NCBI RefSeq assembly: GCF_963921235.1
Contig: NC_086108.1
Location: forward strand, 36,334,001 to 36,398,000
Direction of reading: 5' to 3'
Length of the DNA: 64,000 bases
Source of the DNA: Mobula hypostoma
Taxonomy: Eukaryota
In this document: one piece after another, positions 670 through 54,298 of the stretch
Layout of the letters: the number at the start of each line of letters is the position of its first letter
Numbering within the stretch: position 1 is the first letter of the stretch
Program-made: the position numbers and the translations under genes
Notes under the pieces: model-generated
Databases searched by the model: none
Told to the model about the DNA's origin: nothing
Seen by the model: the letters and a program-made list of their open reading frames with translations, nothing else

Positions 670-1949
670 GGAAGAGGTAGAGTCGACGTTTCAGGCTGAG
701 ACCCTTCGTCAGGACTAACTGAAGGAAGAGTTAGTAAGAGATTTGAAAGTTGGAGGGGGAGGGGGAGATCCAAAATGATAGGAGAAGACAGGAGGGGGAG
801 GGATGGAGCCAAGAGCTGGACAGGTGATTGGCAAAGGGGATATGAGAGCATCATGGGACAGGAGGCCCAGGGAGAAAGACAAGGGTGGGGGGGTACCCAG
901 AGGATGGGCAAGGGGTATAGTCAGAGGGACAGAGGGAGAAAAAGGAGAGTGAGAGAAAGAATGTGTGTATAAAAATAAATAACAGATGGGGTACGAGGGG
1001 GAGGTGGGGCATTAGCGAAAGTTAGAGAAGTCAATGTTCATACCATCAAGTTGGAGGCTATCCAGACGGAATATAAGGTGTTGTTCCTTCAACCTGAGTG
1101 TGGCTTCATCTTTACAGTAGAGGAGCCCGTGGATAGACATGTCAGAATGGGAATGGGATGAGGAATTAAAATGTGTGGCCCCAGAGAGTCCTTCCAGGTG
1201 AGGCGACACTTCACCTGTGAGTCGGCTGGGGTGATATACTGCGTCCGGTGCTCCCGATGTGGCCTTCTATAGGCGAGACCCGACGCAGACTGGGAGACCG
1301 CTTTGCTGAACACCCACACTCTGTCCGCCAGAGAAAGCAGGATCTCCCAGTGCCCACACATTTTAATTCCACATCCCATTCCCATTCTGACATGTCTATC
1401 CACGGCTTCCTCTACTGTAAAGGTGAAGCCACACTCAGGTTGGAGGAACAACACCTTATATTCCGTCTGGGCAGCCTCCAACCTGATGGCATGAACATTG
1501 ACTTCTCTAACTTCCGCTAATGCCCCACCTCCCCCTCGTACCCCATCCATTATTTACTTTTATACACACATTCTTTCTCTCACTCTCCTTTTTCTCCCTC
1601 TGTCCCTCTGACTATACCCCTTGCCCATCCTCTGAGTCCCCCCCACCCCTTGTCTTTCTCCCCGGATCTCCTGTCCCATGATCCTGTCATATCCCCTTTG
1701 CCAATCACCTGTCCAGCTCTTGGCTCCATCCCTCCCCCTCCTGTCTTCTCCTATCATTTTGGATCTCCCCCTCCCCCTCCCACTTTCAAATCTCTTACTA
1801 ACTCTTCCTTCAGTTAGTCCTGACGAAGGGTCTCGGCCTGAAACATCAACTGTACCTCTTCCTGGAGATGCTGCCTGGCCTGCTGCATTCACCAGCAACT
1901 TTGATGGGTGTTGCTTGAATTTCCAGCATCTGCAGAATTCCTGTTGTTT
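670..1949. mobile_element. Penelope-like element, inverted tails-outward duplication of the GIY-YIG end and 3' region
   Basis: Minus arm 670-1180, plus arm ~1177-1949 (IGETRRRLGDRFAEH...GMNIDFSNFR). Flanked by direct repeat gcagaagattaatt at 656-669 and 1950-1963. Confidence 0.9.
681..716 (-). ncRNA. Minimal hammerhead motif (intact core)
   Basis: Reverse complement agtcctgacgaagggtctcagcctgaaacgtcgact. Confidence 0.75.
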
Positions 1950-2532
1950 GCAGAAGATTAATTTACAGGTTGAGTCTGTGGTAAAGAAGGCAAATGCAAT
2001 GTTGGCATTTATTTGAAGGGGAACATAATATAAAAGGAAGGAGATAATGCTGAGGCTTTATAAGACACTAGTCAGGCCGCACTTGGAGTATTGTCAACAG
2101 TTTTGGGCCCCATACCTCAGAAGGGATGTATTGTCATTGGAGAGAGTCCAGAGGAGGTTCATTAGGATGATTCTGGAAATGAAAGGGTTAACATATGAGG
2201 AGCCTTATGGCAGCTTTGGGCCTGTATTCACTGGGATTTATAAGAATGTGGGGGGTTGGGATCTCATTGAAACCCACTGAATGTTGAAAGGACTAGATAA
2301 GGTGGATGTGATGTTTCCTATGGTGGGGGTATCCAGAATCAGAAGGCACAGCCTCAAAATTGAGGGGCAACCTTTTAGAACGAGGTGAGGAGGATTTTTT
2401 TTAGCCGGAGAGTAGTGAATCTGTGCAGTGCTCTGCCACAGACTGCGGCGGAGGCCAAGTCCATGAGTATATTTAAATTGGAAGTTGATAGTTTCATGAC
2501 TGGTCAGGGCGTCAAAGGTTATGGCGAGAAGG

Positions 2533-4097
2533 TATCAAGTTGGAAAGCATCAAGTTGGATAAATCACCGGGACTGGACAGGATGTACCCCAGGTTACTGT
2601 GGGAAACGAGGGAGGAGAATTGCCGAGCCTCTGGCAATGATCTTTGCATCTTCAATGGGGATGGGAGAGGTTCCGGAGGATTGCGGGGTTGCGGATGTTG
2701 CTCCCTTATTCAAGAAGGGGATAGCCCAGGAAATTATAGGCCAATGAGTCTTACTTCAGTGGTTGGTAAGTTGATGGAGAAGATCCTGAGAGGTAGGATT
2801 TATGAACATTTGGAGAGACATATTATGATTAGGAATAGTCAGCATGGCATTGTTAAAGGCAGGCCGTTGCCTTACGAGCCTAATTGAATTTTTTGAGAAT
2901 GTGACTAAACACATTTATGAATGTAGATGTAGTGTCTATGGATTTCAGCAAGGCATTTGATAAGGTACCCCATGCAAGGCTTACTAAGAAAGTAAGGAGG
3001 CATGGGATCCAAGGGAACATTGTTTTGTGGATCCAGAACTGGCTTGCGCACAGAAGGCAAAGTGTGGTTGTAGTCGGGTCATATTCTGCATGAAAGCCGG
3101 TGACCAGTGGTGTGCCTCAGGGATCTGTTCTGGGACCCCTGCTCTTTGTGTGATTTTTATAAATGACCTGGATAAGGAAGTGGAGGGATGGGTTTGTAAA
3201 TTTGCTGATGACACAAAGGCTGGGGGTGTTGTGCATAGTGTGGAGGGCTGTCAGAAGTTACAACGGGATATTGGTAGGATGCAAAACTGGGCTGAGAAGT
3301 GGCAGATGGAGTTCAACCCAGATAAGTGTGAGGTGGTTCATTTTGGTAGGTCAAATATGATGGCAGAATATAGCATTAATTTTAAGACTCTTGGCAGTGT
3401 GGAGGATCAGAGGGATCTTGGGGTCTGAGTCCATAGGACACTCAAAGCTGCTACGCAGGTTGACTCTGTGATTAAGAAGGCATACAGTGCATTGGCCTTC
3501 ATCAATCATGGGATTGAGTTTAAGAGCCGAGAAGTAATGTTACAGCTGTATAGGACCCTGGTCAGACCCCACTTGGAATACTCTGCTCAGTTCTGGTCTC
3601 CTCACTACAGGAAGCACACGGAAACCACAGAAAGGGTGCAGAGGAGATTTACAAGGATGTTGCCTGGATTGGGGAGCATGCCTTATGAGAATAGGTTGAG
3701 TGAACTCAGCCTTTTCTCCTTGGAGTGACGGAGAATGAGAGGTGATCTGATAGAGGTATACAAGATAATGAGAGGAATTGATTGTGTGGATAGTCGGAGG
3801 CTTTTCCGTAGGGCTGAAATGGCTAGCACGAGAGGGCATAGTTTTAAGGTGCTTGGAAGTAGGTACAGAGGAGATGTCAGAGGTAAGTTTTTTACGCAGA
3901 GAGTGGTGAATGCATGGAATGGGCTGCCAGCGGCGGTGGTGGAGGCGGAAACGATACAGTCTTTTAAGAGACTCCTGGATGGCTACATGGAGCTCAGGGC
4001 TATGGGTAAAGCCTAGGTAGTTCTAATGTAGGGACATATTTGGCACAGCTTTGTGGGCTGAAGGGCCTGTATTGTGCTGTAGGTTTTCTATATTTCC
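2533..4097 (+). mobile_element. CR1 LINE (second subfamily), 5'-truncated, nested in the first CR1
   Basis: DKSPGLD, PGNYRPMSLTS, FADDTK and LVRPHLEY motifs; short flanking duplication aaggta. Confidence 0.88.
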
Positions 4098-4752
4098 AAG
4101 GTAGGTGTATGGGGTCAAGTGGGATCTGGGATCAGTCTTAATAGAATGGCAGAGCAGACTCAGTGGGCTGAATGGCTTAATTCTGCTCCGATGTCTTGTG
4201 GTTTTATGTGTGGCACCTTCTTAAAGGCTTTCTGAAAATCCAAGAACACAACTTCAACCAATTCTCCTTTGTTTGTCCTGTTTGTTATTTCTATAAAGAA
4301 TTCCAACAGATTTGTCAAGCAATATTTTCTCTTGAAGAAACCATGCTGACTATGGCCTATTTTATCATGTGTCTCCAAATACCCTGAGACGCATCTTTAC
4401 TAATCGATTCCAACATCCTCCCGACCACTGAGGTCAGACTAACAGGCCTATATTTGCCTTTCTTCTGTCTGTCTCCCCTCTTGAAGTGTGGAGTGACATT
4501 TGCAATTTTCCAGTCTTCCAAACCATTCCAGAACCTAATGATTTTTTTGAATGTTCATTACTAATGCCTTCACAAACTCTGCAGCAACCTCTTTCAGAAC
4601 ACCTGGTGTACACCATCTGGTCCAGGTGACTTATCTCTCCTTAGACCTTTCCGTTTCCCCAAGAACCTTCTCCTTAGTGATGGTGGCTCCACACATTTCT
4701 GATCCCTCACAGTCTTGAACTTCCAACATACAGTGAGGAGTGATGCACAATA

Positions 4753-7003: not shown

Positions 7004-7859
7004 TACTTAGTTTGCCCACCATTTTCTTGACCCCATTACTACCTCTCCAGCATTGTTTTCCAGTAGCCCAATATCCACTCTCACCTCTCTTTTATACTTT
7101 GTATCTGAAAAACTTTTGGTATCCTCTTTAATATTATTGGTTAGCTTATTTTTGTATTCCATCTTTTCCTGAATGACTTTTTTAGTTGTCTTCTGTTGGT
7201 TTTTAAAAGCTTCCCAATCCTCTAACTTCCCACTAATTTTTGCTGTATTATGTGCCCTCTCTTTGGCCTTTATGTTGCCTTTGACTTCCTTGTTAGCCAC
7301 AGTTGTGTAATCTTGCTGTTAGAATGCTACTTACTCTTTGGGATGTATACTGAACCTTCTAAATTCCAGGAAGTCTAGCCATTGCTGTTCTGATGTCTTC
7401 CCTGCAGGTGTTCTTTTCCAATCAGTTTTGATCAAATCTTCTTTTAATTCCCTTAACTCCACTGTAATACTGATACATATGACTTTAGCTTCTGCTTTTC
7501 AAATTTCAGGGTGAATTTGATCATATTATGATCCCTTGTCCCTAAGTGTTCCTTTACCTTCAGCTCTCTGATCAATTCTGGTTCATTGCAGAACACTCAA
7601 TCCAGAATAGTTGATCCCCTGGTATGCTAAACCACGACCTACTCTGAAAAACCACCTCGTAAGCATTCTATAATTCCCCCTTTTGGGATCCAGCCCCAAC
7701 CTAATTTTCCCAAGCTGCCTGCATACTGAAATCCCCCATTGCTATTGTATCTTTGCCCTTTGACATGTGTTTTTTATTACCTGCTGTAATATGTAAACCA
7801 TATCCTTATTACTGTTTGGGGGTTTATATAACTCCTATCAGGATCTTTTTACCCTTGCA

Positions 7860-8027
7860 ACACACAAAATGCTGGAGAAACACAGCAGGCAACATCTATG
7901 GAAAATAGTTAACATTCGATGTTTTGGGCCGAGACCCTTATCAGGATATGTGATGCTGTCTGGCCTGCTGAGTTCCTCCAGCATTTTGTGTGTGTTGCTT
8001 AGATTTACAGCATCTGCTGATTTTATC
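7860..8027. mobile_element. Short inverted (palindromic) Penelope-derived 3'-end insertion
   Basis: Arms acacacaaaatgctggag... / ...ctccagcattttgtgtgtgttgc; 17-bp direct repeat atctttttacccttgca at 7843-7859 and 8028-8044. Confidence 0.75.
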
Positions 8028-8249
8028 ATCTTTTTACCCTTGCATTACCTTAGCTCTATCCACAATGATTCAGCACCTTCTGACCTATGTCACCTCTTTC
8101 TCATGATTTGATTTCACTTTTACCAAATGACCCATGCCACCCCCTCTGCCTACCCGCCTGTCCTTTTGCTACAATGTGTATCCTTGGACGTTAAGCTCCC
8201 AGCTACAACCTTCCTTCAGCCATGATCCATCAATGCCTACAACCTGATG

Positions 8250-9015
8250 CATGCAAAACTCCACCAAACATTTTCTGTAGCTTTGCCTTCCTGATGGCAC
8301 AGAGAGCATGGCTCTTAACAGAGTCATCTTATCCCCTGATCTGAAGGCAGTGTCTCGATTCAAGGGTCTGCTGCATGTTTTAGGTCATAACTGCACTGCA
8401 ACTTTGTTACCCAGCTCACAGATCTAGTGCATCAACCTCTGCAGTCAGCCATGCTTTCTGGTTTTCCCTGGCAGTGCAGTGTTTAATCACGGTAACTTCC
8501 TCAATGCATTTTCTGATGTAGCCAGTCACCAATCCCGCATAATCATCAATGTTGACGTGATGATCGTAGGTAGCTGCCTCCCTGATTATGCTTCAGACTG
8601 TGCTTTTGAAATAGTCCTGCAGTGCTGAAGACGTCTCACTTCCGATCTGAAGGCAGCACCTTGATCTCTCAGTAGTGTATGAATCTTTGCAGTTAACCCT
8701 TGTTTCTTATTTGCCCTGGGCAGTGTATTCCTGCAGTGCTGAGGTGGCATGTTCCGGCACACACTCAGCAATTCAAGGACAGCTTCTTCCCATCTGCCAT
8801 CCGATTCCTAAATGGACGTTGAACCCGTGAACACAATCTCACTTTTTAAGTATATATCATTCCTGTTTTTGCACGATTGTTAATCTATTCAACAGATATA
8901 TAATTTGATTGATTTATTTTTCTTCTATGTTATCTGTCTATTTCATTGAACTGCTGCTGCTAAGTTAACGAATTTCACGACACATGCTGGTGATAATAAA
9001 CTTGATTCTGATTTT
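8250..9015. mobile_element. Rex1/Babar LINE fragments (minus-strand internal pieces and a plus-strand 3' end)
   Basis: RDTAFRSGDK-type peptides; 3' end gacagcttcttccc...aataaacttgattctgatt. Confidence 0.6.
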
Positions 9016-13046: not shown

Positions 13047-14531
13047 CTAGACAATGGGGTGACCCGTTGGGGCACCCTTTGAGAGAAGGGTAGTGCAGTC
13101 TGATATGAGCAGAATGAACATTAAATTTTCCTGAGTGCTATTGGTATCGCTTTGCTTTGGAAACCGAAGTAGAAAACCTCAGTTTATTAAAGAAGAACGA
13201 CGCGTAGCAAAGCAAATATGGCTGCTCCTCATTTAACGAAGGACACTTTTGATGGCATCATTTCTGGTTTATCTGCCACCTTTGTGTCTCTCGTTGTCAT
13301 TCTGGAGACGTGCAGCCCTTTCAGCCCCATCTCTTCAGCTCTTCTACTGTTTGTTGTTTGTCTCTGATCCTGGAGACGTGCATGCCTCTCCTCCTCTGTC
13401 TCTTCTTCTCTCATCTTTTTTTGTCCTGACTCTTTGATCCTGGAGTTGTGCGGCCTTGGCCTCATCTGATTGTTGTTCTCTCTCTCTCCTTGCCGCTTTC
13501 CGACGACGTTTGGCATCATCCCTTGATCATAATGTCCCCCTTCCCTTTCCATGCGGCATAATTAGGCTGACCATTTTTTTTTACCCTAATGCTGTATAGA
13601 AGATACGAAGCACTAACACCAAAGGATGCTGATTATTCTTGATGATGTGGTTGGCGCTCTTCTAAATGGACGTGATATAGTCACCGCTGTCCTTTGATTG
13701 TAGCAAAGGGTTTTATGGGTGTCTCGAAGTACGTCATTACAATAAGATTTAATTATCTCTTATTGATGGGTGGTAGTTAGATCTGTCCAATCCTGCACAT
13801 ACTGATGGTGATTTGCAGAATGTGACCCCTTGCAGTCCCTCTCCCTCCCTTGCCCCACCCCAGTTTCACTCTGCCCCATCCCCCAGCTGCCTATCACCTC
13901 ACTCATGGTTCCGCCTCCTTCTACTACTCATTGTGCTTTTCCCTATTCCTTCTTCACCTTTCCTGCCTATCCCCTCCCTGCTTCCCCTCCCCCACCTCTT
14001 TATCTTTCCCCTTACTGGTTTTTTCACCTGGAACCTACCAGCCTTCTTCTTCCCACCCTCCCCCCACTTTCTTTATAGGGCCTCTGCCCCTTCCCCCTTC
14101 AGTCCTGATGAAGGGTTCCGGCCCGAAATGTTCACTGATTGTTTCCACGGATGCTGTCCGATCTGCTGAGTTCCTCCAGCGTGTTGTGAGTGTTGCTTTG
14201 ACCCCAGCATCTGCAGAGTATTTTGTGCCCTTGAAATAGAGCTGCCCTGCCCATTTGCATGTCACTGCTGAGGCTGGCGTGCTCATGCGTCGGGCTGTCG
14301 CATCCCGATTTTCATGATGGCCGATTGGCGCTCAGTTGAAAGGCAGCCTGTTGATTTTTGGCGAATGAGCAATTTTATAGGAATATATAACCCTGAACTT
14401 TGCCTGCATTCTGTAAGTTAGCGCATTTTAATTTGATGTAGCCAAAAAAAGTACTGCTGTAATGCAGCGTTTGTGCTGATTGGAGGTTACAAACAGACAG
14501 ACAGAGCATGAGAGTTTTAGTAGTATATAGA
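13047..14531 (-). mobile_element. Non-autonomous Helitron inside the L1 inter-ORF region
   Basis: Minus strand reads A|TCTATATACTACTAAAA...hairpin gggtgccccaacgggtcaccc...CTAG|T with no TSD. Residual peptide EETEEERHARLQDQRQ resembles Helitron N-terminal repeats. Confidence 0.85.
13830..14225 (+). mobile_element. Penelope-derived 3'-end fragment nested in the Helitron
   Basis: Pyrimidine-rich tract, then agtcctgatgaagggttccggcccgaaa and ctgctgagttcctccagc...agcatctgcaga. Confidence 0.7.
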
Positions 14532-17725: not shown

Positions 17726-18880
17726 ATAAAAGTAAGGTGTCTCTCCTTCTCCAGCTAAGGTTACAAATGAGGTCCTCTACTTGGGTAGTAAAGTTAATAC
17801 TTCCCTATCGCCTGTGGCTAAAACAAATTACTCTTTAATTTTGAAAAAAATAGAAGATATTAATAGATGGAGACACCTGCCACCATCAGTCCCAGCCCAT
17901 ATATCGGTCATTAAAATGAACATCTTACCCTGCATTGATTTTATCGGCTCAATGATCCCACTTGCGCCTTCAGCAGGATATTGGCAAAAATTGGACTCTT
18001 TACTATGATGCTATGTTTGGAACAGTAAACAACCCAATATAAAGTGGTTAGCTCTACAATTCAAAAAGTCAGATGGGGGATTGGCATGTCCAAATTTTAA
18101 ATTTTATCACTGGGCATTTGTCTTAGCTATTGGATGGAGGAGGATAAAGTTTTGTCATGGAAAAATATAGAACAAGAGCTAATAGCACCAATAAGGTTGA
18201 AGGACTTTCTCCTTATAGGTATGTCTACCAAAAAATGTGATTTGTATTACGGTCCAATTTTAACCCATATGCTACAAGTTAGAGCAGCAGAAAAATTCCT
18301 AAAATTTAAAAGCGTATGGTGCAAATCATCTCCATTATGGAACAATAATCATCTTCTAACTGGAGAGAAACCATTCACTAACAGAACTTGAGAGGATAAA
18401 GGTATTACTACTCTTCAAGATATTAATGGGGCAAGTACTATCCTTAACTTTCAAGAACTGGTATCTCGATATAATATTGATAAACACTCTCTTTTCTTCT
18501 ACTTCAGAGTAAGATCAGCGTGTAAAGCCTATGGGGTTACCTGGGGGTCAGATTTAAAGGACCAAACCATTTTAAGTTGGATACAGAGTGCTCCAGGACA
18601 GATAGTGTCATATATCTATGATAAATTAAACTCCCAGAAATATATGCCCATATCAGGAATGAAAGCCTGGGATAGGGACATATCTGAATTGGGACAAGAC
18701 TAGACTGGGATGTGATTTGGGATAATGCTGCCGGTGCTTCGAAAAACCCAAATCATCAGTATATACACTTGAAATTTTGTCATAGAGCATATTTAACACC
18801 GAGAATTAGACATCAAATGGGACTGGTTCCTGATCCATATTGCTCATTTTGTTCCCAAAGAGCCATTGGCTCTTATATAT

Positions 18881-19066
18881 AAGCAACACACATCAAAGTT
18901 GCTGGTGAACGCAGCAGGCCAGGCAGTATCTCTAGGAAGAGGTACAGTCGACGTTTCAGGCGAGACTGTACCTCTTCCTAGAGATGCTGCCTGGCCTGCT
19001 GCGTTCACCAGCAACTTTGATGTGTGTTGCTTGAATTTCCAGCATCTGCAGAATTCCTCTTGTTTG
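18881..19066. mobile_element. Mini inverted Penelope 3'-end insertion nested in L1
   Basis: ~70-bp near-perfect palindrome of the Penelope terminus; imperfect duplication ttggctctt(a/t)ta on both sides. Confidence 0.85.
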
Positions 19067-20441
19067 GCTCTTTTATACATGTTGAATGGGAATGTCCAGG
19101 GGTTTTTGATTTGTGGGGGAAGGTTATCAGTACTCTTACAGAACTAATGGGGGTACAATTACCAATGGACCCTGCTGTACGTCTTCTTAATGGTGACTCT
19201 CACCTTTCCCTTACGGAAAAAAACACGCAAAGTCTGGCTGGCAGGCCTGACTGCAGCTAAGAAGGTTGTAGTCCTGTTGGAAACCTCCTCATGATATTTC
19301 AAGTACTCACTGGCTTCGGAGCTCTTTGGACATTTCTTACCTGGAACTATCATCAGCAAGAGTAAATGATGCATGACCAAACACAATCTTAATGTGGACA
19401 AATTTGATATCTAACTTAAAAGATCTTCTGTTAAAATAGGAATGCTCTGTCTGTGTATGCACTGCTATTCAGTTGGTTGGTGGAGGGGAGAGGGGCGGAG
19501 AGGGGGGTGGGGATGAAGAAGAGGTGGGAAGGATGGTGATGTAGGTTGGGGGTGGCTGGGTTAAACAGTTAAAATGTAATCGGCAACTGGTTGTATTGAA
19601 TGCAATTTGTTGGTGTTGCAATAAAAAATTAGTGATTTTAAAAAAAAGAAAATTAAAGAAGAGTAATTAGAAGCTGTATCTTCACCTATGACTGGGGGAG
19701 TAAGTAATTCCTATCACATGGAGAAGTTGAGGCAACAGACTAGTTTTGAAAGGAAGCAAGATAATGAGGGAAACGTGAGATTTGTTGCTGCCTATATTGC
19801 AATATTATGAGTGGGTTGTGAACATGATGGACAAAGTCAGTATGCCTATACTCTACATTCATGGGTCTGTAAATAACATTCACTGAATGAACAATTTGCG
19901 TACAAGGACATACAAATATCTGTCCTTGCCACCCTTCACTTCATATAATACTTCATATTTCACTTCATGGACTCAAGTGTTCTTTCCAGATGAAGCTGCA
20001 GTTCACTTGTACTTCCAATTCACTGGGGTATTGTTAATGAGGAAATTGCCAATTCAGTTGGCAAGTTAGCCTGGCAGAGACTGCTGTTCAAATACATAGT
20101 TTATCATATAAACCAAAACTATTCTACTATCTACATCGAGAATGCTTTTCTCTTGAAATTCAAATGCTCTTCAGAATTTTTGTGAGTGTTATTTTGTGAG
20201 CTTAGGCTTGCCTGTTATGTTTTCTGGAAGCAGGTTATTGTCTAAAATTCTCAAATATTGCTGAATGTTTCTTGATTCACGTTTGCAAAAGTGAAACTTG
20301 TGCAAGTCATGAATGCTTTGTTCTTCCCTGTGATTGTCTTTTCAGAAGCCACTGCAAAAAAATTGCATTCCAAATTTTTTTTAGGCTAGCAATACCAGAG
20401 AATTTCAGACTGTCTTAACTTTTACACATCATATCTTTCAG

Positions 20442-21349: not shown

Positions 21350-22040
21350 TAGATTAGATCAGATTATGAGGACACAGTCCTCTTTTATTGTCATTTAGTA
21401 ATGCATGCATTAAGAAATTATACAATATTCCTCCAGTATGATATCACAGAAACACAAGACAAACCAAGACTGAAAAACTGACAAAAACCACACATAATTA
21501 TAACATATAGTTACAACAGTGCGAAGCAATACCGTTACTTGATAAAGAACAGACCATGGGCACGGTAAAAAAAAGTCTCAAAGTCTTTCGAAAGTCCCAT
21601 CATCTCACGCAGACGGTAGAAGGAAGAAAAACTCTCCCTTTCCATGAGCCTCCAGCGCCGCAAACTTGCTGATGCAACATCTTGGAAGCACCCGACCAGA
21701 ACTGACTCTTGAGTCCGTCCGAAAACTTCGAGCCTCCGACCAGCCCTCCAACACCGAGCACCAAGCACCATCTCTGCCAAGCGCTTCGACCCTGACCCCG
21801 GCCTTGGCAACAGGCAATAGGCAAAGCTGAGGATTTGGGACCTTCTGCTCCGGAGATTCTCGATCGCACAGTAGCAGTGGCAGCGAAGTGGGCATTTCAG
21901 AAGTTTCTCCAGATGTTCCTCTGTGCTTCTCATGTCTGTCTCCATCAAATCAGGATTGTGCACGGTACCTACTTAACAAATACCGATATCATTTCGGAGC
22001 GGCTGCGCGCGCTGTGTCGCGTCGCCATCTTCTCCTCCCC
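21350..22040 (-). mobile_element. Non-autonomous LINE-derived element (~690 bp), related to 39884-40535
   Basis: Minus-strand start GAAGATGGCG; 3' aataaa plus short tandem tail; clear similarity to the copy at 39884-40535. Confidence 0.6.
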
Positions 22041-33310: not shown

Positions 33311-33324
33311 TTTTTTCTCAGACA

Positions 33325-33622: not shown

Positions 33623-34385
33623 GAATTTAAATCTTCTTTGCCACAGGATTTAAGTGAGACCCTCTCTCATTGCTCCCCCTCTGTGATTTCTGCTTTCCCC
33701 TGGCTCTTTGAGCATGTGTTCAACTAGCACCTATTACCTTCTAGCTTTTCCTCCTCCCCACCCCCAACCTATTTATTCTGTCATCTTCCCCCTTCTTTTC
33801 CAGCCATGATGAAGGGTCTCAGCCTGAATCATTGAATGTTTATCCCTTTCCATAGCTGCTACCTGACCTACTGAATTCCTTCAGCATTCTGTGTGTGCTG
33901 CTCTTACCTCCTGTTTAGGTGCCTAAAATTTAGGTGCCTAAAATTTCTCACTTGGTTTGGGATTCTTCCAATAAATCTTTGTAACCATCCTGCTGATTAC
34001 GCGAAATAGTTAGATTCTAATGTTTTAATTCAGGTACTTTTAGAGGTCTGGAGAGAGGCATAAAACTTGTTGTTTCACGATTGTTTTATTAAGCGCGAAT
34101 AGAAAAGAGAACATTAAAAATGGACAGTAACAAGAGCAGAGGCAACTAAGTTAAGGGAGAGGGAAACAAAAGCAATGCAGACCAAAGACTAAAAGATTGC
34201 GGAGCCTGAGATCATCTCTTTTTACACCCCAAAGATAAGGAACGTTCCATTCATATTCTGAGGTAAGAGTTACCTTATTCAAATAATGCAGCACCAGAAG
34301 CTTCCAGAGCTTTCCAGAATCATACAGATGCAACCTTTAGGAGACACACTGAACAACTGCATATACGTACTTGTGGTTACTAGGA

Positions 34386-34387
<2 letters not shown>

Positions 34388-34429
<42 letters not shown>

Positions 34430-34500: not shown

Positions 34501-34650
34501 CAGTTATATAAAATGCAAGCAGACAATTAGATGCTAAGCTGCAAAGAAAATAACAATTCAACAGTCTAACATAGTGGTCGCCAACCGGTTGATCTTTGAG
34601 ACTTTCTCTGAAGATCCCAAAAAAAAAAGAAAAATAAATACACAAATACT

Positions 34651-34958
34651 GTTGTAATGTGAACATTATAAAAATAAGTAATACTAATTGGATAATGGTA
34701 ATATAGCAATACTCCTGCTACTGCAGTTTGTGAAGAGAGATTGTTTCCAGGTTGCAGGGTTTTATTTCCATTCTTTCTGCCCAGTGCGCATGTGTATAGC
34801 TCCCCCGCTATGCACCGTGGTAGAAAAGACCAGAAGTAAAACACCGCAAAACGGAAGCAACCTCTCTTTACAAACAGCTTTCCATAATGAGAGTATTGCT
34901 ATATTACCATTATCCTAATTTGCATTAACTTATCTTTATAATGCTCACATTACAGCAT
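34651..34958. repeat. Inverted repeat, probable hAT-type MITE interior
   Basis: 34651-34713 is the reverse complement of 34889-34958; hAT-like end tagtggtcgccaacc at ~34572. Confidence 0.55.
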
Positions 34959-35166: not shown

Positions 35167-35377
35167 GGCCGGCTGGTGGCATAGTGACATCGGCGCTGGA
35201 CCCGGGAGCGGGGGTTCCTGGGTTCGAAACCAGTCGGGTCCACTCCCAAGTACGCTTTCCATCCGTGCCGGGGTTGAGTGTCGAGATCACAACTCGACCT
35301 CGTAAAATAAAGGGAAAAATACTGCGAAAATGTCTGTGTGAGGAGTGGTGTATCACACAGTCAGTCAGTCTCAGTCT

Positions 35378-35440
<63 letters not shown>

Positions 35441-35900
35441 CCTCTCTCTCTCCCTCTCTCCCTCTCTCCCTCTCTCCCTCTCTCCCTCTCTCCCTCTCTC
35501 CCTCTCTCCCTCTCTCCCTCTCTCCCTCTCTCCCTCTCTCCCTCTCTCCCTCTCTCCCTCTCTCCCTCTCTCCCTCTCTCCCTCTCTCCCTCTCTCCCTC
35601 TCTCCCTCTCTCCCTCTCTCCCTCTCTCCCTCCCTCTCTCCCTCTCTCCCTCCCTCTCTCCCTCTCTCCCTCTCTCCCTCTCTCCCCCTCTCCCTCTCTC
35701 CCTCTCTCCCTCTCTCCTCTCTCCTCTCTCCCTCTCTCCTCTCTCCCTCTCTCCTCTCTCCCTCTCTCCTCTCTCCCTCTCTCCTCACTCCTCTCTCTTC
35801 TCTCCTCTCTCCCCTCTCTCTCTCTCCTCTCTCTCTCTTCTCTCTCCTCTCCCCCCCGCCTTGTAAGAGCCATGAAAAAGACATCATCATGGAAAAGTGA
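35167..35900 (+). mobile_element. tRNA-derived SINE containing an expanded CT-rich microsatellite
   Basis: A box tggcatagtg, B box ggttcgaaacc; shared core gagtgtcgagatcacaactcgacctcgtaaaa. Confidence 0.7.
35381..35857. repeat. (CT)n/(CTCTCTCC)n pure pyrimidine microsatellite, ~475 bp
   Basis: Direct reading. Confidence 0.97.
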
Positions 35901-37149
35901 AAGTTTAGACCATACTATGAAACCCACTTTATCTCATTTCTACTATTTAATATGAAATGTTGGCATACAATTTAGTTTTGCAGTGTTAAAGCCTGGAAGA
36001 TTAGGTCGTTATATGCATATTGTGACCATATTATGATTGAACACGCATTCAGACTTTATTTTTGTGATAGCAAAGGTTTCCATAAAGTTTTAACCATCAT
36101 TAAACAAATAGGCAATTTGCAAAAAATTGTTCATCATTGACCATATATATGAGCAACCTACTGGTCCAAACTAATGGCAACTATTCACACTTCTTTTTCT
36201 ATATGGAGGTGATCAATCACTGAGCTATACATGGCTGCCAGAGAAGTTCCTGACAGGTAAAGCACTAAGCTTAGACCAGGTTTGATTTGATTGGTGGTGA
36301 CCTTGGTCATAATCTGATGTGACATGTGACAATGAGATGCTCTGCCAGTTTCTGATGATCTGCCTTTGTGGATTCTGAAACCTCACCAGCTGGACGCATA
36401 GTGTTGTAGATTTCAGCAGGTGTGGGCTGATCAGGTGCAGAGCTAAGCAGAGCATGGCCAGGCCATCATTTTCAGGAGTTTTACTTGCCTTAAACAAGCA
36501 GACTTGCTCTTACACACATTGATCCAGACTCTCCCATTTGCTGTCATTTAACATTTCTGAGATAGAAGACAGGTAATTATAGCAGCCTGTATTATCTGTT
36601 GTCTTTAAATTATTTAATTTAGCACTCGAGGACTTGTAAAACCTTAACACATTTTACTGATCCATCCTCTTCTTTAAGATTGCTCGTCTGAACTTTTTTG
36701 AAGAAACATGAGCATTTTTCATCTTGGTCCACAAAATGAACTGTGGGTTGGAAGCTGACTTGAAAGGATGGAAGCACAGAATAATGTTTGCTGTCTCTTT
36801 AGGAACATCTAAGAGACAAATGGCTGAAGAAGGAGAAATCTGATGGGAGGGGACTGGCTTCTGCCCACTTCTTTTCCAGTCCTGATGAAAGTTCTCGGCC
36901 CAAAATATCGATTGTTCATTTCCCTCCATTGGCACGGCCTGTCCTGCTGAGTTCTTCCAGCATCTTATGTGTGAAGCTCAAGATTTCCAGCATGCAGATA
37001 ATCTATTGTGTTTAAGTTTGGGGCAGCCATCTCCATTTAAAATTTCTGAGCTGAATTGGTATTTCACCAGTCTGTCAGTTTTACAATCTTGTCATGTGTT
37101 AAATGGCATTTCAGTTATGGCTAGTACTATTCTGTTATACATTAGAGTA

Positions 37150-38634: not shown

Positions 38635-38742
<108 letters not shown>

Positions 38743-39769: not shown

Positions 39770-41050
39770 CTGCAGCTCTGCTCTATCTGCTACAAGCATA
39801 ATTTGCCAGTGGCCAACTATTTTAATTCCTATTCGCATTCGCATTCTGACGTGTTGGTCCCTGGCCTTCTGTTGTGCCAGGATCAGTTCAGTTCAGTTTT
39901 CGTTTATTGTCATTTAGAAATGCATGCATTAAAAAATGATACAACGTTCCTTCAGAATGATATCACAAGAAAACACAGGACAAACCAAGACTAAAGCTGA
40001 CAAAACCACATAATTATAACATATAGTTACAACAGTGCAAAGCAATACCATAATTTGATAAAGAGCAAACCATGGGCACGGTAAAAAGAAAGTCTCAAAG
40101 TCCCGATAGACTCATCATCCCACGCAGGCGGCAGAAGGGAGGAACCCTACCTGCCATGAACCTCCAAACGCCGCCAACTCGCCGATGCAGCACCATTGGA
40201 AGCAGTGGACTCTGAGTCCGTCCGAAAACTTCAAACCTCCGACCAGTCCCTCCGACACAGCCTTTCTGAGCTCCATCCTCTGCCGAGCGCTTCGACCCCG
40301 CCCGCCGAGCAACAAGCAAAGCTGAGGACTCAGGGCCTTCCCCCACCGGAGATTCTGGACCACACAGTAGCAACAGCAGCAGCGAAGCAGGCATTTCAGA
40401 AGTTTCACCAGATGTTCCTCCGTGTTCTCACGTCCGTCTCCATCAAATCAGGATTGTGCGCCCCATCCTACTTGACAAATAACAGACATCACCACCGGAG
40501 TGGCCGCTACGAGCTGCATCGCGCTGCCATCTTCCCACCATCCCACTCTTCCATCTTGTTCACCCACAAGATGAACCCATTCTTAGGGTGGAGGAGCAAC
40601 GCCTCGTATTCTGTCTGGGTAGCCTCCAATCTGATGGCATGAATATTGATTTCTCTTGTCCTATTGTATGTCTTATGGTCTTCCGGTTTTAAAAAAATCC
40701 CTCTCTCTTCCCTCTTCTTCTCTTCCCCACTCTAGCTTTTTACTTCTTCTCACCTTCCCCTGGTGCCCCTCTTCCTTCCCTTTCTCCCAAGGTCCATTCT
40801 TCTCTCCTGTTGGATTCCTTCCTCTCCAGACTTCTACTTTTCCTACTCACATGGCTTTACCTATCACCTTCTAGCTAGTCCTTCCTCCCCTCCTCCCACG
40901 TTTTTAGTCTGGCATCTTCCCCCTTCCTTTCCAGTCTTGAAGAAGGGTCTTGCCTGAAAGGTGAACTGTTTATTCATTTCCATAGGTGCTACCTGGCTGC
41001 CTGACCTACTGAGTTTCAACAGCAGTTTGTGTATATTGCTTTGTATTTCC
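39770..41050 (+). mobile_element. Old Penelope 3' fragment interrupted by a non-autonomous LINE derivative (39884-40535, minus strand)
   Basis: LPVANYFNS.SHSHSD peptide before the insert; 3' terminal region with degenerate HHR after it. Confidence 0.7.
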
Positions 41051-41714
41051 AATGGCCCGTTTAAGTATTTGAACAATAATAAACTGAGTATTTCAGCAAT
41101 GGATGCAATGCCATTAATTAGCAAGATACAAAGAAAGTAGTTTATTTGACAATGCAACAGTTGAGAGATAAAGGTGAAAGTGACATGCAGTATGTAACGA
41201 TTTTCTGTTCATGTCTATTTAACCTTGTTATCAGTTGATTTAATGTTAAGACCATAGATTTTAAAAATACTTTTGGTATCACTGAAATGTTCCCAGTAAT
41301 ATTTCACAATTGCAGGTGGGTAATTGAATTTCATACAGTTAACAGATAAAGTGTTACATGCAATGACATATTGATATTCGAAGCTGAAATCTACAGAAAT
41401 TGTGATGTATTTGCTAATTTTAGGTTTTATAGATAGAAAAGTTTGAGTTAACATTTGCTTTTCTGTGAGTCAATTTCCATAGCCATTCACCCACATTTTC
41501 ATAGTAAGGATCATGGGCAGGATTTCCACCCATGTTAAAATGACTGAATAGGTGAAATCATGAGAAAATTCGGAGAGCAATTGTCCTTTCCCTTACTGAA
41601 GAGTTGAAATAGATCTAAATGTATTTTTTAAGGAAAGATCAGAGAATTTTAAAGTAGGTAAGCTGTTAGAAGGAGCAAAGAAGTAGAATTTGTTTCAGAA
41701 TACTTGTACATGGA

Positions 41715-47500: not shown

Positions 47501-47724
47501 GCTCTGTCTTCTCCTTTCTCATGCTACCTGCTGGGGGTGTCACTTTCATTAATGCCCTGAATGTGTTTCTTCATGTGTTACTGAATTATAATTAGAAAAT
47601 CACTGCAAATATTTAACTGATTTTAACTGTTCATATCTTTGCAATTAAAAAAATAAAATCTATGTTGCACAGTGATCTAAAATCTCCAGATATATGCACA
47701 TGATATGAGGCTGGTTATAGAAGG

Positions 47725-50310
47725 ACAACATAAAAATCCTGGAGATTCTTAGCAGGTTGGACATCATTTATGGAAGGAGATAAACAGAGGACATTTTGGA
47801 CTGAGACTAGTAAAGGCATCCATTAGTCTTGTGAGACCATGGATCTGCGCTTGGAAAGTCATCACTCTCTAGGTTACAGGCGTGGGCAAGGTTGTACGGG
47901 AGACCAGCAGTTGCCCATGCTGCAAGTCTCCCCTCTCCACGACACCGATATTGTCCAAGGGAAGGGCATTAGGACCCATACAGCTTGGCACCAGTGTGGT
48001 TGCAGAGCAATGTGTGATTAAGTGCCTTGCTCAAGGACACAACACGTTCCCTCGGCTGGGGCTCGAACTCACGACCTGCAGGTCACTCGTCCAACGCCTT
48101 AACCACTTGGCCACATGACTGAGACTAAAACCTAGAAAAAATATCGGAAGTAGAAAGAGGCCAGAATAAAAGGGTGAGGGAGGGGAGGAGCACAAGCAGA
48201 CAGGTGATGTCAGATGAAAGGGAGAAAGATAAGTGGGAGAGATGGGGGAGAGGAAATAATGTGAGAATCTGCATTGGAGATGACCAAAATGGGATATGAG
48301 GTGCTGTTCCACTAGTCTGTGTCTAGTATTGTGGGAATGGTTTTGGGGGCAGTGCAGGAAGTTAAGAGACAGGTTAGGGTTTAAGGATAGGGATGAGAGC
48401 AGTTAACGATCGGGGCAGTAAATGAAGAGTCGCTGGTGAACAGGTCAGCGAGTCCAGGGATCAGATGTCCATGTGGACTGGAGGCACAGCACAGGTGACA
48501 CTCCAGGTTTGCGAGTCCCAGGCTTGGAGTCTGTGCAAGTCCAGAGTTTGTGATCCGGGCTTCAAATTCCTGTGATCAGCAGGACTTGGGGTCAATACCA
48601 AAGGCCGAAGCCTGAAATCCAAGACTGAAATTGGTGAATCCAGAAGTGAGGCTCGATGGTCAAAGTCCCTGGCTTGACATGTTTCTGTGTCGGGACCCGA
48701 TGACTGCAAGTCCAGGCCAGGAACTGGGCGTTGGAGACAGCCTGTCCTGGGTTATGTGTGAGTGAGTGGGTGGTTGGGAAGTAGGAAAAGGGTTTGTTTT
48801 TTGTTGTTATTATGTTTTATTGCTGGTGTTTTGTTGTTGTTGCTTGTGTTCTTTCGCTGAACATTGTGGGCATGCTGTGTTAGTGACAGAATACGTAGCA
48901 GCGCTTGTCAGGTGCCCCAGCATACCCTTAGGTTGTGTTGGTTGTTAATGTAAATGACACATTTTACTGTGTGTTTCATTGTACATGTGATAAATAAATA
49001 CATCTAAACCTAAGTTTGGCAGTACAGGAGGCTGTGGACAAAAGTGTCAGTGTAGGTATGGGAAGTGGAATTAAGTTGTCCGGCCACTGAGAGATCCTGG
49101 CTGATGAGGCAAACAGCTTGAAGGTGTGTGACGCAGTGACCTTCTCTGCCTCCCCAACCCCCCCATTCCCTCTCCAGTTGCATTGGGGCTCCCCAGTGTA
49201 GCACAGGTCACACTCGGAGCATAGAATCTAGAAAGTGATACTAATGATTTACACAGGAAGTGCTGCCTCACTAGAAGAACTGTTTAGGCCTCTGAATGGT
49301 GCTGAGAAAGAAACTGTAGGAACAGGTGTGATATTTGAGACAGTTCAGGCATAAATGCCTCGGGGAGTGGAATTGGTGGGGCAGGAGGAAAGGACAAGAG
49401 ATTTGCAGAGAAAGAGATTCATCCAATAAGTGAAGGTGGGGGCGGGGGGAGAGATGTATCTGGTGGTGGGATCATGTTGGCGATGCAGGAAGTTGTGAAG
49501 AACGATGTGTTGGATGTGGAAACTCGTGTAATGGTAGGTGTGAAGAAGGGGAACCTATCTCTATTACGTAGGGTGGGCAAGTGGTGCGAGGGCAGATGTG
49601 GAAAAGATGCGAATGACATCTGCATTTATAGCAGTGGAGGGGAAACCCTGTTTCCTGGGGAAAAAATGACATTTTGGATGTCCTGGAATGGGAAGTCTCA
49701 TTATAAAAACAGATGTGGCAGAGATAAAGGAAATAACAGAAGGTGGTAGCATCCTTGCAAATGACGTGATAAGAAGAGCTGTAGTCAAGGTAACTGGAAG
49801 TCATTTGGTTTGTAAACAATGTCAGTAGATAATCTGTTGGTGAGACCCATTACACATTAGGGAATTGCTTCATTAGGTACCTTCACCCTGTCTGCCGTAA
49901 CAGCCAGAATCTCCTGGTGGCCAGCTGTTATAATTCCACTTCCCATTCATGCATTGATGTGTATACCAATGGCCTACTTTACTGCCAGGTTGTGGCTAGA
50001 CACACACTAGAGGAACAAAACAAAACTTCATGTTTTGTCATGGTAGTCTCCAACCTGACGGTATCTAGCTTCCATTAACCACTCCCTTCTGCCTCCCCTC
50101 CCCCTTTTGTGTTGTCTTATCTCTCTGACCCAAATACTTCTTTTTCCTCTACCCCACCCTGATAACTTGCCCATCCGCCACATCTTCCTCCCTCTGCTTT
50201 CCCACCTCCTTCCTTTTATCCTATAATCCACTGCCCTGTTCTATCAGATTTTATCTTCCTTAGCCCTTTGCCTCTTCCACCCATCACCTCCCAGCTTCTT
50301 GCATCAATGA
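47725..50310. mobile_element. Old, diverged inverted Penelope (minus arm ~47725-49840, plus arm ~49840-50310) with nested SINE and another insert (~48330-49010)
   Basis: Minus: SYLDYSSSY.VICKDA and MEQHLIS peptides; plus: GIY-YIG-like tggtgagaccc...ctagaggaacaa. Confidence 0.6.
47810..48116 (-). mobile_element. tRNA-derived SINE with TSD
   Basis: A box tggccaagtgg, B box gttcgagcc; TSD gactgagacta at 47799-47809 and 48117-48127. Confidence 0.85.
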
Positions 50311-51162
50311 ACAAAAATAGACTATGTGTCAGTGCTTTTGCTGGAGCAAATACGGGGGAGGGTTGATGCTTGTGCTGCTGCTTATTTGTGGGAGAGGGAG
50401 GGGGACGGGTGCTTTGGGGTACTGAATTTTCTATCATTCTTTGGGTCTTTTCTGTTTTGTGGATGTCTGCAAAAAGTAAGAATTTTAGGTTCTATACTGT
50501 ACATTCTCTAATGTTAAACCATTGAATCCTCATCTGTCATTTTTCATGTAAACACTTTGCTTGCGAAGGGGGCTGTGATGGATAGATTAATGAAGGTATC
50601 ATTGTGAATGCAGGAAGAATAGGGATTGTGAACAGGGTTAGGAGCAGCATAGTTAGAAACGAGTGATTGTCAGGAAGGAATTCTGAATTTGCTATTGGTG
50701 TTGATCAAATGGAGATACTGAATACAGTTCACTATGTGAGGAAGGACTGGGCATTAAAAAGATACAGGAAAGGATAAATAAATTGACAGCTGCAATTATG
50801 CAAGTGATCTGTGAGGCAAGGTTAGAGAAGCTTTGGCAAATAAAAGTTAAATATCATGATTGCTGACATTTCTGGGTGTGATTTATTTTTGTTGTATGCA
50901 CTTCCTCAGTTCCCTTAAGCTGCTTAACCCTGTTGATCTTTTAGTAATAAACTGAAGAAGAACTTTGCTGCTATTGATAATGACCCTCCCTTTTGTTCTT
51001 ACTTGGAGGGAGATCAAATTAATCCAAGTTTGCATTGAAGTCTGAAATTGTAATAGAAAAACGCAAACAACAGGAATTCTGCAGATGCTGGAAATTCAAG
51101 CAACACACATCAAAGTTGCTGGTGAACGCAGCAGGCCAGGCAGCATCTATAGGAAGAGGTGC

Positions 51163-51198
51163 AGTCGACGTTTCAGGCCGAGACCCTTCGTCAGGACT
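51163..51198 (-). ncRNA. Minimal hammerhead motif (mirror copy, intact)
   Basis: Exact reverse complement of 54133-54168. Confidence 0.8.
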
Positions 51199-51928
51199 AA
51201 CTGAAGGAAGAGTGAGTAAGGGATTAGAAAGCTGGAGGGGGAGATGCAAAATGATAGGAGAAGACAGGAGGGGGAGGGATGGAGCCGAGAGCTGGACAGG
51301 TGATAGGCAGAAGGGGATACGAGAGGATCATGGGACAGGAGGTCCGGGAAGAAAGACGGGGGGGTGGGGGTGACCCAGAGGATGGGCAAGAGGTATATTC
51401 AGAGGGACAGAGGGAGAAAAAGGAGAGTGAGAGAAAGAATGTGTGCATAAAAAAGAGTAACAGATGGGGTACGAGGGGGAGGTGGGCCTAGCGGAAGTTA
51501 GAGAAGTCAATGTTCATGCCATCAGGTTGGAGGCTACCCAGACGGAATATAAGGTGTTGTTCCTCCAACCTGAGTGTGACTTCATCTTTACAGTAGAGGA
51601 GGCCGTGGATAGACATGTCAGAATGGGAATGGGATGTGGAATTAAAATGTGTGGCCACTGGGAGATCCTGCTTTCTCTGGCGGACAGAGCGTAGATGTTC
51701 AGCAAAGCGGTCTCCCAGTCTGCGTCGGGTCTCACCAATATATAAAAGGCCACATCGGGAGCACCGGACGCAGTATATCACCCCAGTCGACTCACAGGTG
51801 AAGTGATGCCTCACCTGGAAGGACTGTTTGGGGCCCTGTGTAGCACTTGTTCCGCTTACACGGATAAGTGCCAGGAGGGAGATCAGTGGGGAGGGATGGG
51901 GGGGACGAATGGACAAGGGAGTTGTGTA

Positions 51929-53834
51929 CGGGACATCAACCGTCTCGACTTCACTGCACCTTGTCCCCATTCCAACCTCACTCCTTCGGAACGCTCTGCT
52001 CTCCACTCCCTCCGCACTAATCCTAACATTATTATTAAACCCGCTGATAAAGGGGGTGCTGTTGTAGTCTGGCGTACTGACCTCTACCTTGCCGAGGCAC
52101 AGCGACAACTCGCGGATACCTCCTCTTATTTACCCCTCGATCGTGACCCCACTAAGGAGCACCAGGCCATTGTCTCCCACACTATCAACGACTTTATCCG
52201 CTCAGGGGATCTCCCATCCACTGCTACCAACCTTATAGTTCCCACACCCCGCACTTCCCGTTTCTACCTCCTACCCAAGATCCACAAACCTGCCTGTCCT
52301 GGCCGACCTATTGTCTCAGCTTGCTCCTGCCCCACCGAACTCGTTTCTGCATACCTCGACACTGTTTTATCACCCCTTGTTCAATCCCTTCCGACCTATG
52401 TTCGTGACACTTCTCACGCTCTTAAACTTTTCGATGATTTTAAGTTCCCTGGCCCCCACCGCTTTATTTTCACCATGGATGTCCAGTCCCTATATACTTC
52501 CATCCCCCATCAGGAAGGTCTCAAAGCTCTACGCTTCTTTTTGGATTCCAGACCTAATCAGTTCCCCTCTACCACCACTCTGCTCCGTCTAGCAGAATTA
52601 GTCCTTACTCTTAATAATTTCTCCTTTTGCTCCTCCCATTTCCTCCAAACTAAAGGTGTAGCTTTGGGCACCCGTATGGGTCCTAGCTATGCCTGCCTTT
52701 TTAGTTGGGTTTGTGGAACAATCTATGTTCCGTGCCTATTCTGGTATCTGTCCCCCACTTTTCCTTCGCTACATCGACGACTGCATTGGCGCTGCTTCCT
52801 GCACGCATGCAGAACTCGTTGACTTTATTAACTTTGCCTCCAACTTTCACCCTGCCCTCAAGTTTACCTGGTCCATTTCCGACACCTCCCTCCCCTTTCT
52901 AGATCTTTCTGTCTCTGTCTCTGGAGACAGCTTATCCACTGATGTCTACTATAAGCCTACTGACTCTCACAGCTATCTGGACTATTCCTCTTCTCACCCT
53001 GTCTCTTGCAAAAATGCCATCCCCTTCTCGCAATTCCTCCGTCTCCGCCGCATCTGCTCTCAGGATGAGGCTTTTCATTCTAGGACGAGGGAGATGTCTT
53101 CCTTTTTTAAAGAAAGGGGCTTCCCTTCCTCCACTATCAACTCTGCTCTTAAATGCATCTCCCCCATTTCACGTACATCTGCTCTCACTCCATCCTCCCA
53201 CCACCCCACTAGGAATAGGGTTCCCCTGGTCCTCACCTACCACCCCACCAGCCTCCGGGTGCAACATATTATTCTCCGTAACTTCCGCCACCTCCAACGG
53301 GATCCCACCACTAAGCATATCTTTCCCTCCCCCCCCCTCTGCATTCCGCAGGGATCGCTCCCTACACAACTCCCTTGTCCATTCGTCCCCCCCATCCCTC
53401 CCCACTAATCTCCCTCCTGGCACTTATCCGTGTAAGCGGAACAAGTGCTACACATGCCCTTACACTTCCTCCCTTACCACCATTCAGGGCCCCAAACAGT
53501 CCTTCCAGGTGAGGCATCACTTCACCTGTGAGTCGACTGGGGTGATATACTGCGTCCGGTGCTCCCGATGTGGCCTTTTATATATTGGTGAGACCCGACG
53601 CAGACTGGGAGACCGCTTTGCTGAACATCTACGCTCTGTCCGCCAGAGAAAGCAGGATCTCCCAGTGGCCACACATTTTAATTCCACATCCCATTCCCAT
53701 TCTGACATGTCTATCCACGGCCTCCTCTACTGTAAAGATGAAGCCACACTCAGGTTGGAGGAACAACACCTTATATTCCGTATGGGTAGCCTTAACCTGA
53801 TGGCATGAACATTGACTTCTCTAACTTCCGCTAG
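51929..53834 (+). pseudogene. Penelope-like RT + GIY-YIG endonuclease ORF, 5'-truncated, about three frameshifts
   Basis: KPADKGG, FYLLPKIHK, GRPIVS, MDVQSLYTSIPH, RYIDD, Cys-rich linker CKRNKCYTC, and VIYCVRCSRCGLLYIGET...RFAEH. Confidence 0.93.
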
Positions 53835-54132
53835 GCCCCACCTCCCCCTCGTACCCCATCTGTTACTCTTTTTTATGCACACATTCTTTCTCTCACTCTC
53901 CTTTTTCTCCCTCTGTCCCTCTGAATATACCTCTTGCCCATCCTCTGTGTCACCCCCACCCCCCCCCGTCTTTCTTCCCGGACCTCCTGTCCCATGATCC
54001 TCTCGTATCCCCTTCTGCCTATCACCTGTCCAGCTCTCGGCTCCATCCCTCCCCCTCCTGTCTTCTCCTATCATTTTGCATCTCCCCCTCCCCCTCCAGC
54101 TTTCTAATCCCTTACTCACTCTTCCTTCAGTT

Positions 54133-54168
54133 AGTCCTGACGAAGGGTCTCGGCCTGAAACGTCGACT
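54133..54168 (+). ncRNA. Minimal type I hammerhead ribozyme motif in the Penelope 3' terminal region
   Basis: AGUC-CUGACGA-A-GGGU(CUCG)GCCU-GAAA-C-GUC/GACU: helix I AGUC/GACU, both core boxes, helix II, palindromic ACGU in place of helix III, GUC cleavage triplet. Confidence 0.8.
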
Positions 54169-54298
54169 GCACCTCTTCCTATAGATGCTGCCTGGCCTGC
54201 TGCGTTCACCAGCAACTTTGATGTGTGTTGCTTGTAATAGAAAACTTGTTATTGACAGTATTAGATTTCTTGGGATTGTTCCAGTAGGGAATTTATTA

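What the first reader, a model, noticed from the sequence alone, without database searches (positions are those of the whole stretch)
670..54234. Recurrent rule across four or five inverted Penelope insertions: one complete end, one end truncated at the same motif
Seen: inverted units at 670-1949, 7860-8027, 18881-19066 and 51061-54234, plus an old one at ~47725-50310. In the four clear cases one arm runs to the full terminus (...agcatctgc...) and the other stops short. In three of four it stops at ...GTGTGTTGC(TT), ~35 nt before the end. TSDs of about 10-17 bp overlap element sequence by a few bases. Inference: a defined second priming site or RNA end that anneals to the target by microhomology, used by both autonomous and tiny non-coding derivatives.
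Basis: partly seen in the sequence, partly recalled or inferred. Interest (0 to 1): 0.7.

Follow-up and report, generated by a model that had tools for sequence, protein, structure and literature searches.

The report
Penelope retrotransposon one-sided tail insertions
These mirror-image jumping-gene insertions in a cartilaginous-fish-like genome carry a 35-base extension on only one side, which is the already published 'tail' signature of Penelope-like elements starting their copying at two fixed places inside their RNA; the only small addition is a hint that a few matching bases with the target help the start.

Summary
Four inverted Penelope-like (PLE) units with 13-17 bp target duplications lie at the given places. 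In 4 of 4 one arm carries a 33-36 nt extension; in 3 of 4 the other arm stops at GTGTGTTGC(TT). This is the PLE 'tail', described as present on one of the inverted pLTRs (Arkhipova 2013; Craig 2021) and explained in vitro by two internal reverse-transcription start sites used on both cut strands (Frangieh 2024). Corrections: the 'complete end' is most likely also an internal start site; the large copy is 5'-truncated and frameshifted, not autonomous; the tiny units look like very short products of ordinary insertions; the old unit does not fit. Small additions: 2-4 nt target/RNA identity at 5 of 7 measurable ends (P about 5e-5, small n), which the in vitro work did not report; a Neptune-type protein; and a short hairpin at the short site. 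No host genome was held. Contigs of three related runs confirm the long site, but support the short site only weakly. The scan noted similar mini-PLE palindromes earlier on other DNA.

The parts
656..669 (+). Target duplication of unit E1, left copy (right copy 1950-1963), 14 bp exact
670..1180 (-). E1 inverted arm; stops 15 nt after the hammerhead cut site, not at the common short site
1177..1951 (+). E1 forward arm: GIY-YIG remnant, pLTR, hammerhead, long end with tail
7843..7859 (+). Target duplication of unit E2, left copy (right copy 8028-8044), 17 bp exact
7860..7943 (-). E2 inverted arm of an older related family; begins at the upstream edge of the hammerhead, stops at the short site
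7945..8027 (+). E2 forward arm with tail
18866..18879 (+). Target duplication of unit E3, left copy (right copy 19064-19077), 14 bp with 1 mismatch
18881..18966 (-). E3 inverted arm, stops at the short site (GTTGCTT)
18964..19066 (+). E3 forward arm with tail; begins at the predicted hammerhead cut site (+1 to +4)
47725..49838 (-). Old unit, long arm: decayed RT-thumb/linker remnant at 49189-49838, interrupted, pLTR ending at the short site at 47725
49884..50310 (+). Old unit, other arm; ends before the hammerhead, no tail, no target duplication found
51048..51060 (+). Target duplication of unit E4, left copy (right copy 54232-54244), 13 bp exact
51061..51931 (-). E4 inverted arm with GIY-YIG remnant, pLTR and long end
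51061..51097 (-). The tail: about 35 nt between the short and the long start site
   Evidence: literature
51163..51198 (-). Minimal hammerhead motif (AGTC-CTGACGA...GAAACGTC/GACT); second intact copy at 54133-54168 (+), third at 681-716 (-)
   Evidence: own descriptor scan; Rfam had no hit
51932..54234 (+). E4 forward arm: 5'-truncated, frameshifted RT, CX4CxxC linker, GIY-YIG endonuclease, pLTR, stops at the short site
14101..14225 (+). Terminal part of a non-inverted copy of a related family, long end
33800..33903 (+). Terminal part of a non-inverted copy of a related family, stops at the short site
36860..37014 (+). Very short non-inverted copy, long end
40933..41051 (+). Terminal part of a non-inverted copy that ends about 13 nt into the tail (intermediate end)

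Best explanation
These are ordinary insertions of endonuclease-positive Penelope-like retrotransposons of Neptune type. The GIY-YIG domain makes a staggered cut 13-17 bp apart in AT-rich DNA (inferred from the duplications). Both freed 3' ends prime reverse transcription on the element RNA (shown in vitro for the anole Poseidon element, inferred here). Priming begins at one of two preferred internal sites about 35 nt apart, here about 67-70 and 102-103 nt downstream of the hammerhead cut site, which leaves a 'tail' on one arm only. Both cDNAs copy the same 3' region from the same source element, stop at variable lengths, and are joined head to head, at a few shared bases in two of the units, giving an inverted unit. 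A 2-4 nt match between the target end and the RNA probably sets the exact start base (inferred from 7 junctions). Tiny units are the same event with both cDNAs stopping after about 80-105 nt.
For: Structure and duplications. The arms of one unit share 19 diagnostic sites and the two alternative groupings share 0, over 514 columns; E4 arms differ by 1.0%. Centres differ in every unit, with GGCC shared at E1 and GAC at E3. RT and GIY-YIG homology. Independent contigs: loose-end clusters at 51057, 51064 and 51065 in runs X1 and X5 (214-256 contigs each); 8 of the 10 listed pieces with 14 or more loose letters on the element's 3' side end at 51059-51065 (4) or 51096-51104 (4), out of 24 pieces shown; the first-listed joint links 51065 to 51098 on opposite strands in 3 contigs in each of two organisms. 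Literature: tail on one inverted pLTR; two internal start sites, both strands cut and extended. End identity of 2,0,3,3,0,4,3 nt against a null mean total of 2.6-3.0 (P 3e-5 to 6e-5).
Against: Only 4 clear units, and E1 breaks the short-site rule. One non-inverted copy ends in mid-tail. In one search no short-site position is among the 18 loose-end rows shown (756 not shown), so the genome-wide strength of the short site was not measured. The 24 pieces shown are the longest of about 188,500 and 85-92% alike, so some stops may be family divergence rather than ends. The raw-read run X21 laid 0 reads. The published in vitro result says initiation is at a site not homologous to the cut DNA, which differs from the identity seen here. 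The terminal RNA folds no better than shuffles (z +0.2 to -0.7). The E4 long-end identity uses that arm as its own reference; it is backed only by other contigs matching to 51057.
Confidence: 0.85

Rival explanations
1. Coupled asymmetric priming: within one insertion event the two target strands are obliged to use different sites, one long and one short, for instance because a protein dimer sits on one RNA or on a pair of RNAs with fixed geometry.
For: 4 of 4 duplicated-target units have exactly one tail. The joint 51065-51098 pairs the two sites. A dimer is predicted for the anole protein.
Against: 4 of 4 has probability 1/16 if each arm chose freely at even odds. In vitro no difference in start site was seen between strands. 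The literature says 'often' or 'optionally' at one end.
Confidence: 0.35
2. The short end is made after priming: both arms start at the long site and about 35 nt is trimmed from one arm by the endonuclease when the intermediate is resolved.
For: [quoted passage not shown] Both sites share the motif TGTTGYTTG in the E1/E3/E4 family, which could be a DNA cut motif.
Against: Frangieh 2024 mapped RT starts directly onto both tail boundaries. The short arms abut intact target duplications and show 3-nt identity at 2 of 3 canonical short ends.
Confidence: 0.1
3. The tiny units are a separately transposing non-autonomous family (MITE-like or retrozyme-like), copied as ready-made palindromes.
For: Putative non-autonomous PLEs and retrozymes exist. 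One opposite-strand joint has depth 507 over 4 contigs in X5.
Against: Every unit in the window has its own centre. E2 and E3 belong to different families. No two share a junction. Listed joints are seen in 1-5 contigs among about 90,000-128,000 laid.
Confidence: 0.1
4. L1-type twin priming: one primer at the RNA 3' end, and the second at a random internal site chosen by microhomology.
For: Inversion, target duplication and 2-4 nt identity resemble it (twin priming recalled from memory; one search found no paper applying it to PLEs among 3 listed).
Against: In twin priming the arms are non-overlapping parts of one RNA. Here both arms copy the same 3' region and the second site is mostly fixed.
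Confidence: 0.03

Closest known systems
PLE 'tail' on inverted pLTR units (Arkhipova et al. 2013, PMC3846280; Craig et al. 2021, PMC8557442; passages read)
   Same: Inverted 5'-truncated arm next to the main copy, 30-40 bp extension on one end only, short target duplication.
   Different: Duplications here are 13-17 bp against 8-10 bp in Adineta. Target/RNA identity at the outer ends is not mentioned in the passages read.
PAc, Poseidon element of Anolis carolinensis (Frangieh et al. 2024, PMC11167929; parts 1-3 of 4 read; supplementary figure text not retrievable)
   Same: Two internal start sites bounding the tail, downstream of a hammerhead; both strands cut and extended; AT-rich targets; a stem-loop at the start site.
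   Different: Neptune-type linker here. The start region is GU-rich rather than AC-rich. First site about 67-70 nt after the cut against 85-92 nt. Short identity with the target is seen here, whereas the paper says not homologous.
Minimal hammerheads of metazoan PLEs (Cervera and de la Pena 2014, PMC4209133; passages read)
   Same: Core CUGANGA/GAAA, 4-bp helix I, extra base before helix II, palindromic ACGU at helix III.
   Different: Activity not tested; Rfam gives no hit.

Membership tests
EN+ Penelope-like element | PLE-type RT with DKG motif | tested here: met
   KPADKGG, YIDD and RT motifs in the E4 frames; 2379 homologues, the best 78% identical (Chiloscyllium punctatum), most listed with PF00078. 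Pfam itself gave no RT hit on the two broken pieces.
EN+ Penelope-like element | C-terminal GIY-YIG endonuclease with CCHH | tested here: met
   PF01541 at E 7e-5 (23.5 bits, above cut-off) and 2e-4 (21.9 bits, just under); VIYCVRCSRC..YIG and two His.
EN+ Penelope-like element | pLTR with hammerhead motif | tested here: met
   Descriptor scan found 3 perfect and 2 near copies in pLTRs plus 1 unrelated hit; Rfam none.
EN+ Penelope-like element | Inverted 5'-truncated arm and 30-40 nt tail on one end | tested here: met
   4 of 4 units; tail 33-36 nt.
EN+ Penelope-like element | Partial tandem: element sequence continues past the tail into the next ORF | tested here: inconclusive
   No tandem copy in the window. 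Contigs extend to 51057 and share a further motif (agreement 0.40-0.51).
Neptune (or Nematis) clade | CX2-5CxxC linker between RT and EN | tested here: met
   CKRNKCYTC in E4; 33 of 58 long homologues match my linker pattern.
Neptune (or Nematis) clade | RT phylogeny with reference Neptune and Nematis sequences | not tested
   No named reference sequences in hand. Neptune is preferred because only Neptune and Poseidon were found in vertebrates.
Autonomous element | Intact full-length ORF | tested here: not met
   E4 starts at residue 165 of 654 in the best homologue and at 262-334 of 893-955 in two longer ones, with two frame changes.
Non-autonomous PLE / retrozyme | Multiple copies with one fixed structure, or tandem arrays of hammerhead units | tested here: not met
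   Different centres in all units of the window; window-level test only.

The most novel reading that the evidence does not exclude
In vivo, each inverted PLE insertion is one concerted event in which the two target strands are assigned to different start sites (one tail, one no tail), on either side of a conserved short hairpin, and each start is registered by 2-4 nt of target/RNA pairing. This would revise the in vitro conclusion that PLE initiation is independent of homology and extend the two-site rule from Poseidon to the Neptune clade.
Probability: 0.3. Interest if true: 0.45.

Novelty: already known. Interest (0 to 1): 0.2.

Why it matters
The main pattern matters little as news, since it is the published signature of PLE insertion. 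It is a clean set of examples from a Neptune-type family with more than 90,000 matching contigs per deep run, so a host assembly would make two open points of the PLE cycle directly countable: whether the two arms' start sites are coupled, and whether short pairing with the target guides initiation.

Tried and rejected
Own genome not held, so the genome-wide plot could not be made. Pattern scans of viral, metagenome and prokaryote collections gave 0, 0, 0, 0 and 1 hits; the one hit, L001, is a 65% GC bacterial coding region matching by chance and was dropped. Rfam: no hammerhead hit, only 20 sub-threshold matches to a TA/CA microsatellite near 34400. Folding of the terminal RNA was no better than shuffles in 6 of 6 stretches; only a 4-6 bp hairpin ending at the short site recurs (4 of 4 pairs in 9 of 12 copies, 3 of 4 in 1, pattern not matched in 2; one double change AGCA/UGCU to AGGA/UCCU). 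The depth profile is ragged from contig breakage and was not used. 'Skip' joints and the loose ends at 51109 and 51162 were read as divergence of related families, not as ends. Raw-read run X21 laid nothing and is no test. The search of Frangieh supplements returned no passages (7,325 characters held as text), so Figs S1-S2 were not seen and may already show arm pairing or junction identity. A sequence look-up of earlier findings gave nothing.

Full report
Observation. Self-BLAST and direct reading show four inverted units at the stated places. Each is flanked by a direct duplication: 14, 17, 14 (one mismatch) and 13 bp, 65-85% AT. Measured from the predicted hammerhead cut, the long end lies at about +102/103 and the short end at +64 to +70. 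All four units have exactly one long arm. The other arm stops at the short site in E2, E3 and E4, and at +15 in E1. A profile search of the window (read) found more ends of related families: two non-inverted copies with a long end (near 14225 and 37014), one with a short end (33903), one ending about 13 nt into the extension (41051), and the old unit, whose left arm stops at the short site (47725) while its right arm lacks the terminus. My tally is 6 long ends, 5 short-site ends and 3 others. Under a uniform null, 3 of 4 within 6 nt has P 0.015 (150-nt range) and 5 of 8 has P 0.0004; for a 60-nt range the values are 0.08 and 0.013.

What the element is. The long arm of E4 encodes, in three frames, an RT with the DKG motif, a CX4CxxC linker and a GIY-YIG domain with the two cysteines between the motifs. 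The best homologue is a shark protein at 78% identity, which points to a cartilaginous fish host (inference). Craig et al. 2021 give the linker as the mark of Neptune and Nematis. E4 lacks the N-terminal part and changes frame twice, so it is not autonomous. The pLTR holds a minimal hammerhead of the kind described by Cervera and de la Pena, which Rfam misses.

What is known. Arkhipova et al. [quoted passage not shown] Craig et al. [quoted passage not shown] Frangieh et al. 2024 show with purified anole protein that both strands are cut and extended, that reverse transcription starts at two internal sites, and that the tail is the sequence between them (parts 1-3 of 4). I did not see that paper's supplementary figures.

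Outside evidence. No host genome was held. Of 24 runs listed, 17 hold half or more of the stretch's words. I laid four on 51001-51300. Three contig sets gave 127,648, 90,507 and 4,544 laid records; the raw-read run gave 0. Loose ends cluster at the long site: 51057, 51064 and 51065, with 214-256 contigs per row in X1 and X5, and a flank consensus that is T-rich in RNA sense at only 0.38-0.40 agreement. The rows at 51057 in X1 and X14 end in a shared motif, so element sequence seems to continue past the 'complete' end, as expected for an internal start in a tandem transcript. The short site does not appear among the 18 loose-end rows shown (756 hidden, selection rule unknown); this neither confirms nor excludes it. 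Of the 24 pieces shown, 10 have 14 or more loose letters on the element's 3' side: 4 stop at 51059-51065, 4 at 51096-51104 and 2 elsewhere (51117, 51122). These are long, diverged pieces, so this is weak support. The first-listed joint links 51065 with 51098 on opposite strands in 3 contigs in each of two organisms, naming exactly the two sites.

How the inverted unit forms. Over 514 shared columns, 19 sites group the two arms of each unit together and none groups them otherwise; the E4 arms differ by 1.0% and the E1 arms by 6.6%. Both arms thus come from one source element. The centres differ in each unit, with GGCC shared at E1 and GAC at E3, so the inversion is built at insertion and is not inherited from a palindromic master. 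Both arms cover the same 3' region, which rules out L1-style twin priming on non-overlapping parts of one RNA (recalled mechanism). The tiny units fit the same event with early stop; very short PLE insertions are also reported in Chlamydomonas (median 128 bp).

What may be added. At 7 of 8 outer ends a reference continuation was available (E2's long end had none and was left out). The duplication matched it for 2, 0, 3, 3, 0, 4 and 3 nt, total 15 against 2.6-3.0 expected (P 3e-5 to 6e-5). The published in vitro study calls the start site not homologous to the cut DNA. Searches for a report of such identity at PLE outer ends listed none by title or abstract start, and the Frangieh text holds no 'microhomology'; subscription papers were not searchable. 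The sample is small and one reference is partly circular. The short site lies at the 3' base of a 4-6 bp hairpin that recurs across families with one compensatory change, although overall folding is not above shuffles. Both sites share TGTTGYTTG in the main family. Exactly one tail in 4 of 4 units hints at coupling but has probability 1/16 under free choice.

Verdict. A real, correctly described feature that is the known PLE tail. Already known; interest 0.2. The open residue is whether arm starts are coupled and guided by short pairing, which a host assembly would settle.

Noticed in passing
window 18964: The forward arm of E3 begins at the predicted hammerhead cut site (+1 to +4, blurred by a 3-nt overlap). 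It could be run-off on a self-cleaved RNA; one case only, and the published work found no RNA ends there.
   Followed up: partly
window 51194-51198 and 7943: Loose ends (482 and 366 contigs) and several joints fall at the upstream edge of the hammerhead, and E2's inverted arm starts there. It may be a preferred 5' stop, or merely where related families diverge.
   Followed up: partly
window 51065 and 51098 (table 5): Long end joined tail to tail with a short end in 3 contigs in each of two organisms: tandem inverted units, a circle junction, or insertion at an element's own end. Letters between are not excluded.
   Followed up: no
window 47725-47745: Old copy has AGGA...TCCT where the others have AGCA...TGCT: a double change that keeps the hairpin at the short site.
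   Followed up: partly
window 51835: The E4 inverted arm has an internal deletion of about 32-40 bp in the linker region relative to the forward arm.
   Followed up: no
window 39790-41051: Old non-inverted PLE copy interrupted by a 640-bp repeat (39894-40534) that also occurs at 21375-22032.
   Followed up: no
window 1-382 and 34650-34957: Two other imperfect palindromes (71-73% arm identity) without the PLE terminus; nature not determined.
   Followed up: no
window 35369-35855: Tandem repeat array with units of about 56 or 112 bp.
   Followed up: no
window 193-669, 1954-2534, 7019-8221, 27348-29743: E1 and E2 are inserted into older repeats whose uninterrupted counterparts lie at 27348-29743, giving a stand-in for the empty sites.
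   Followed up: no
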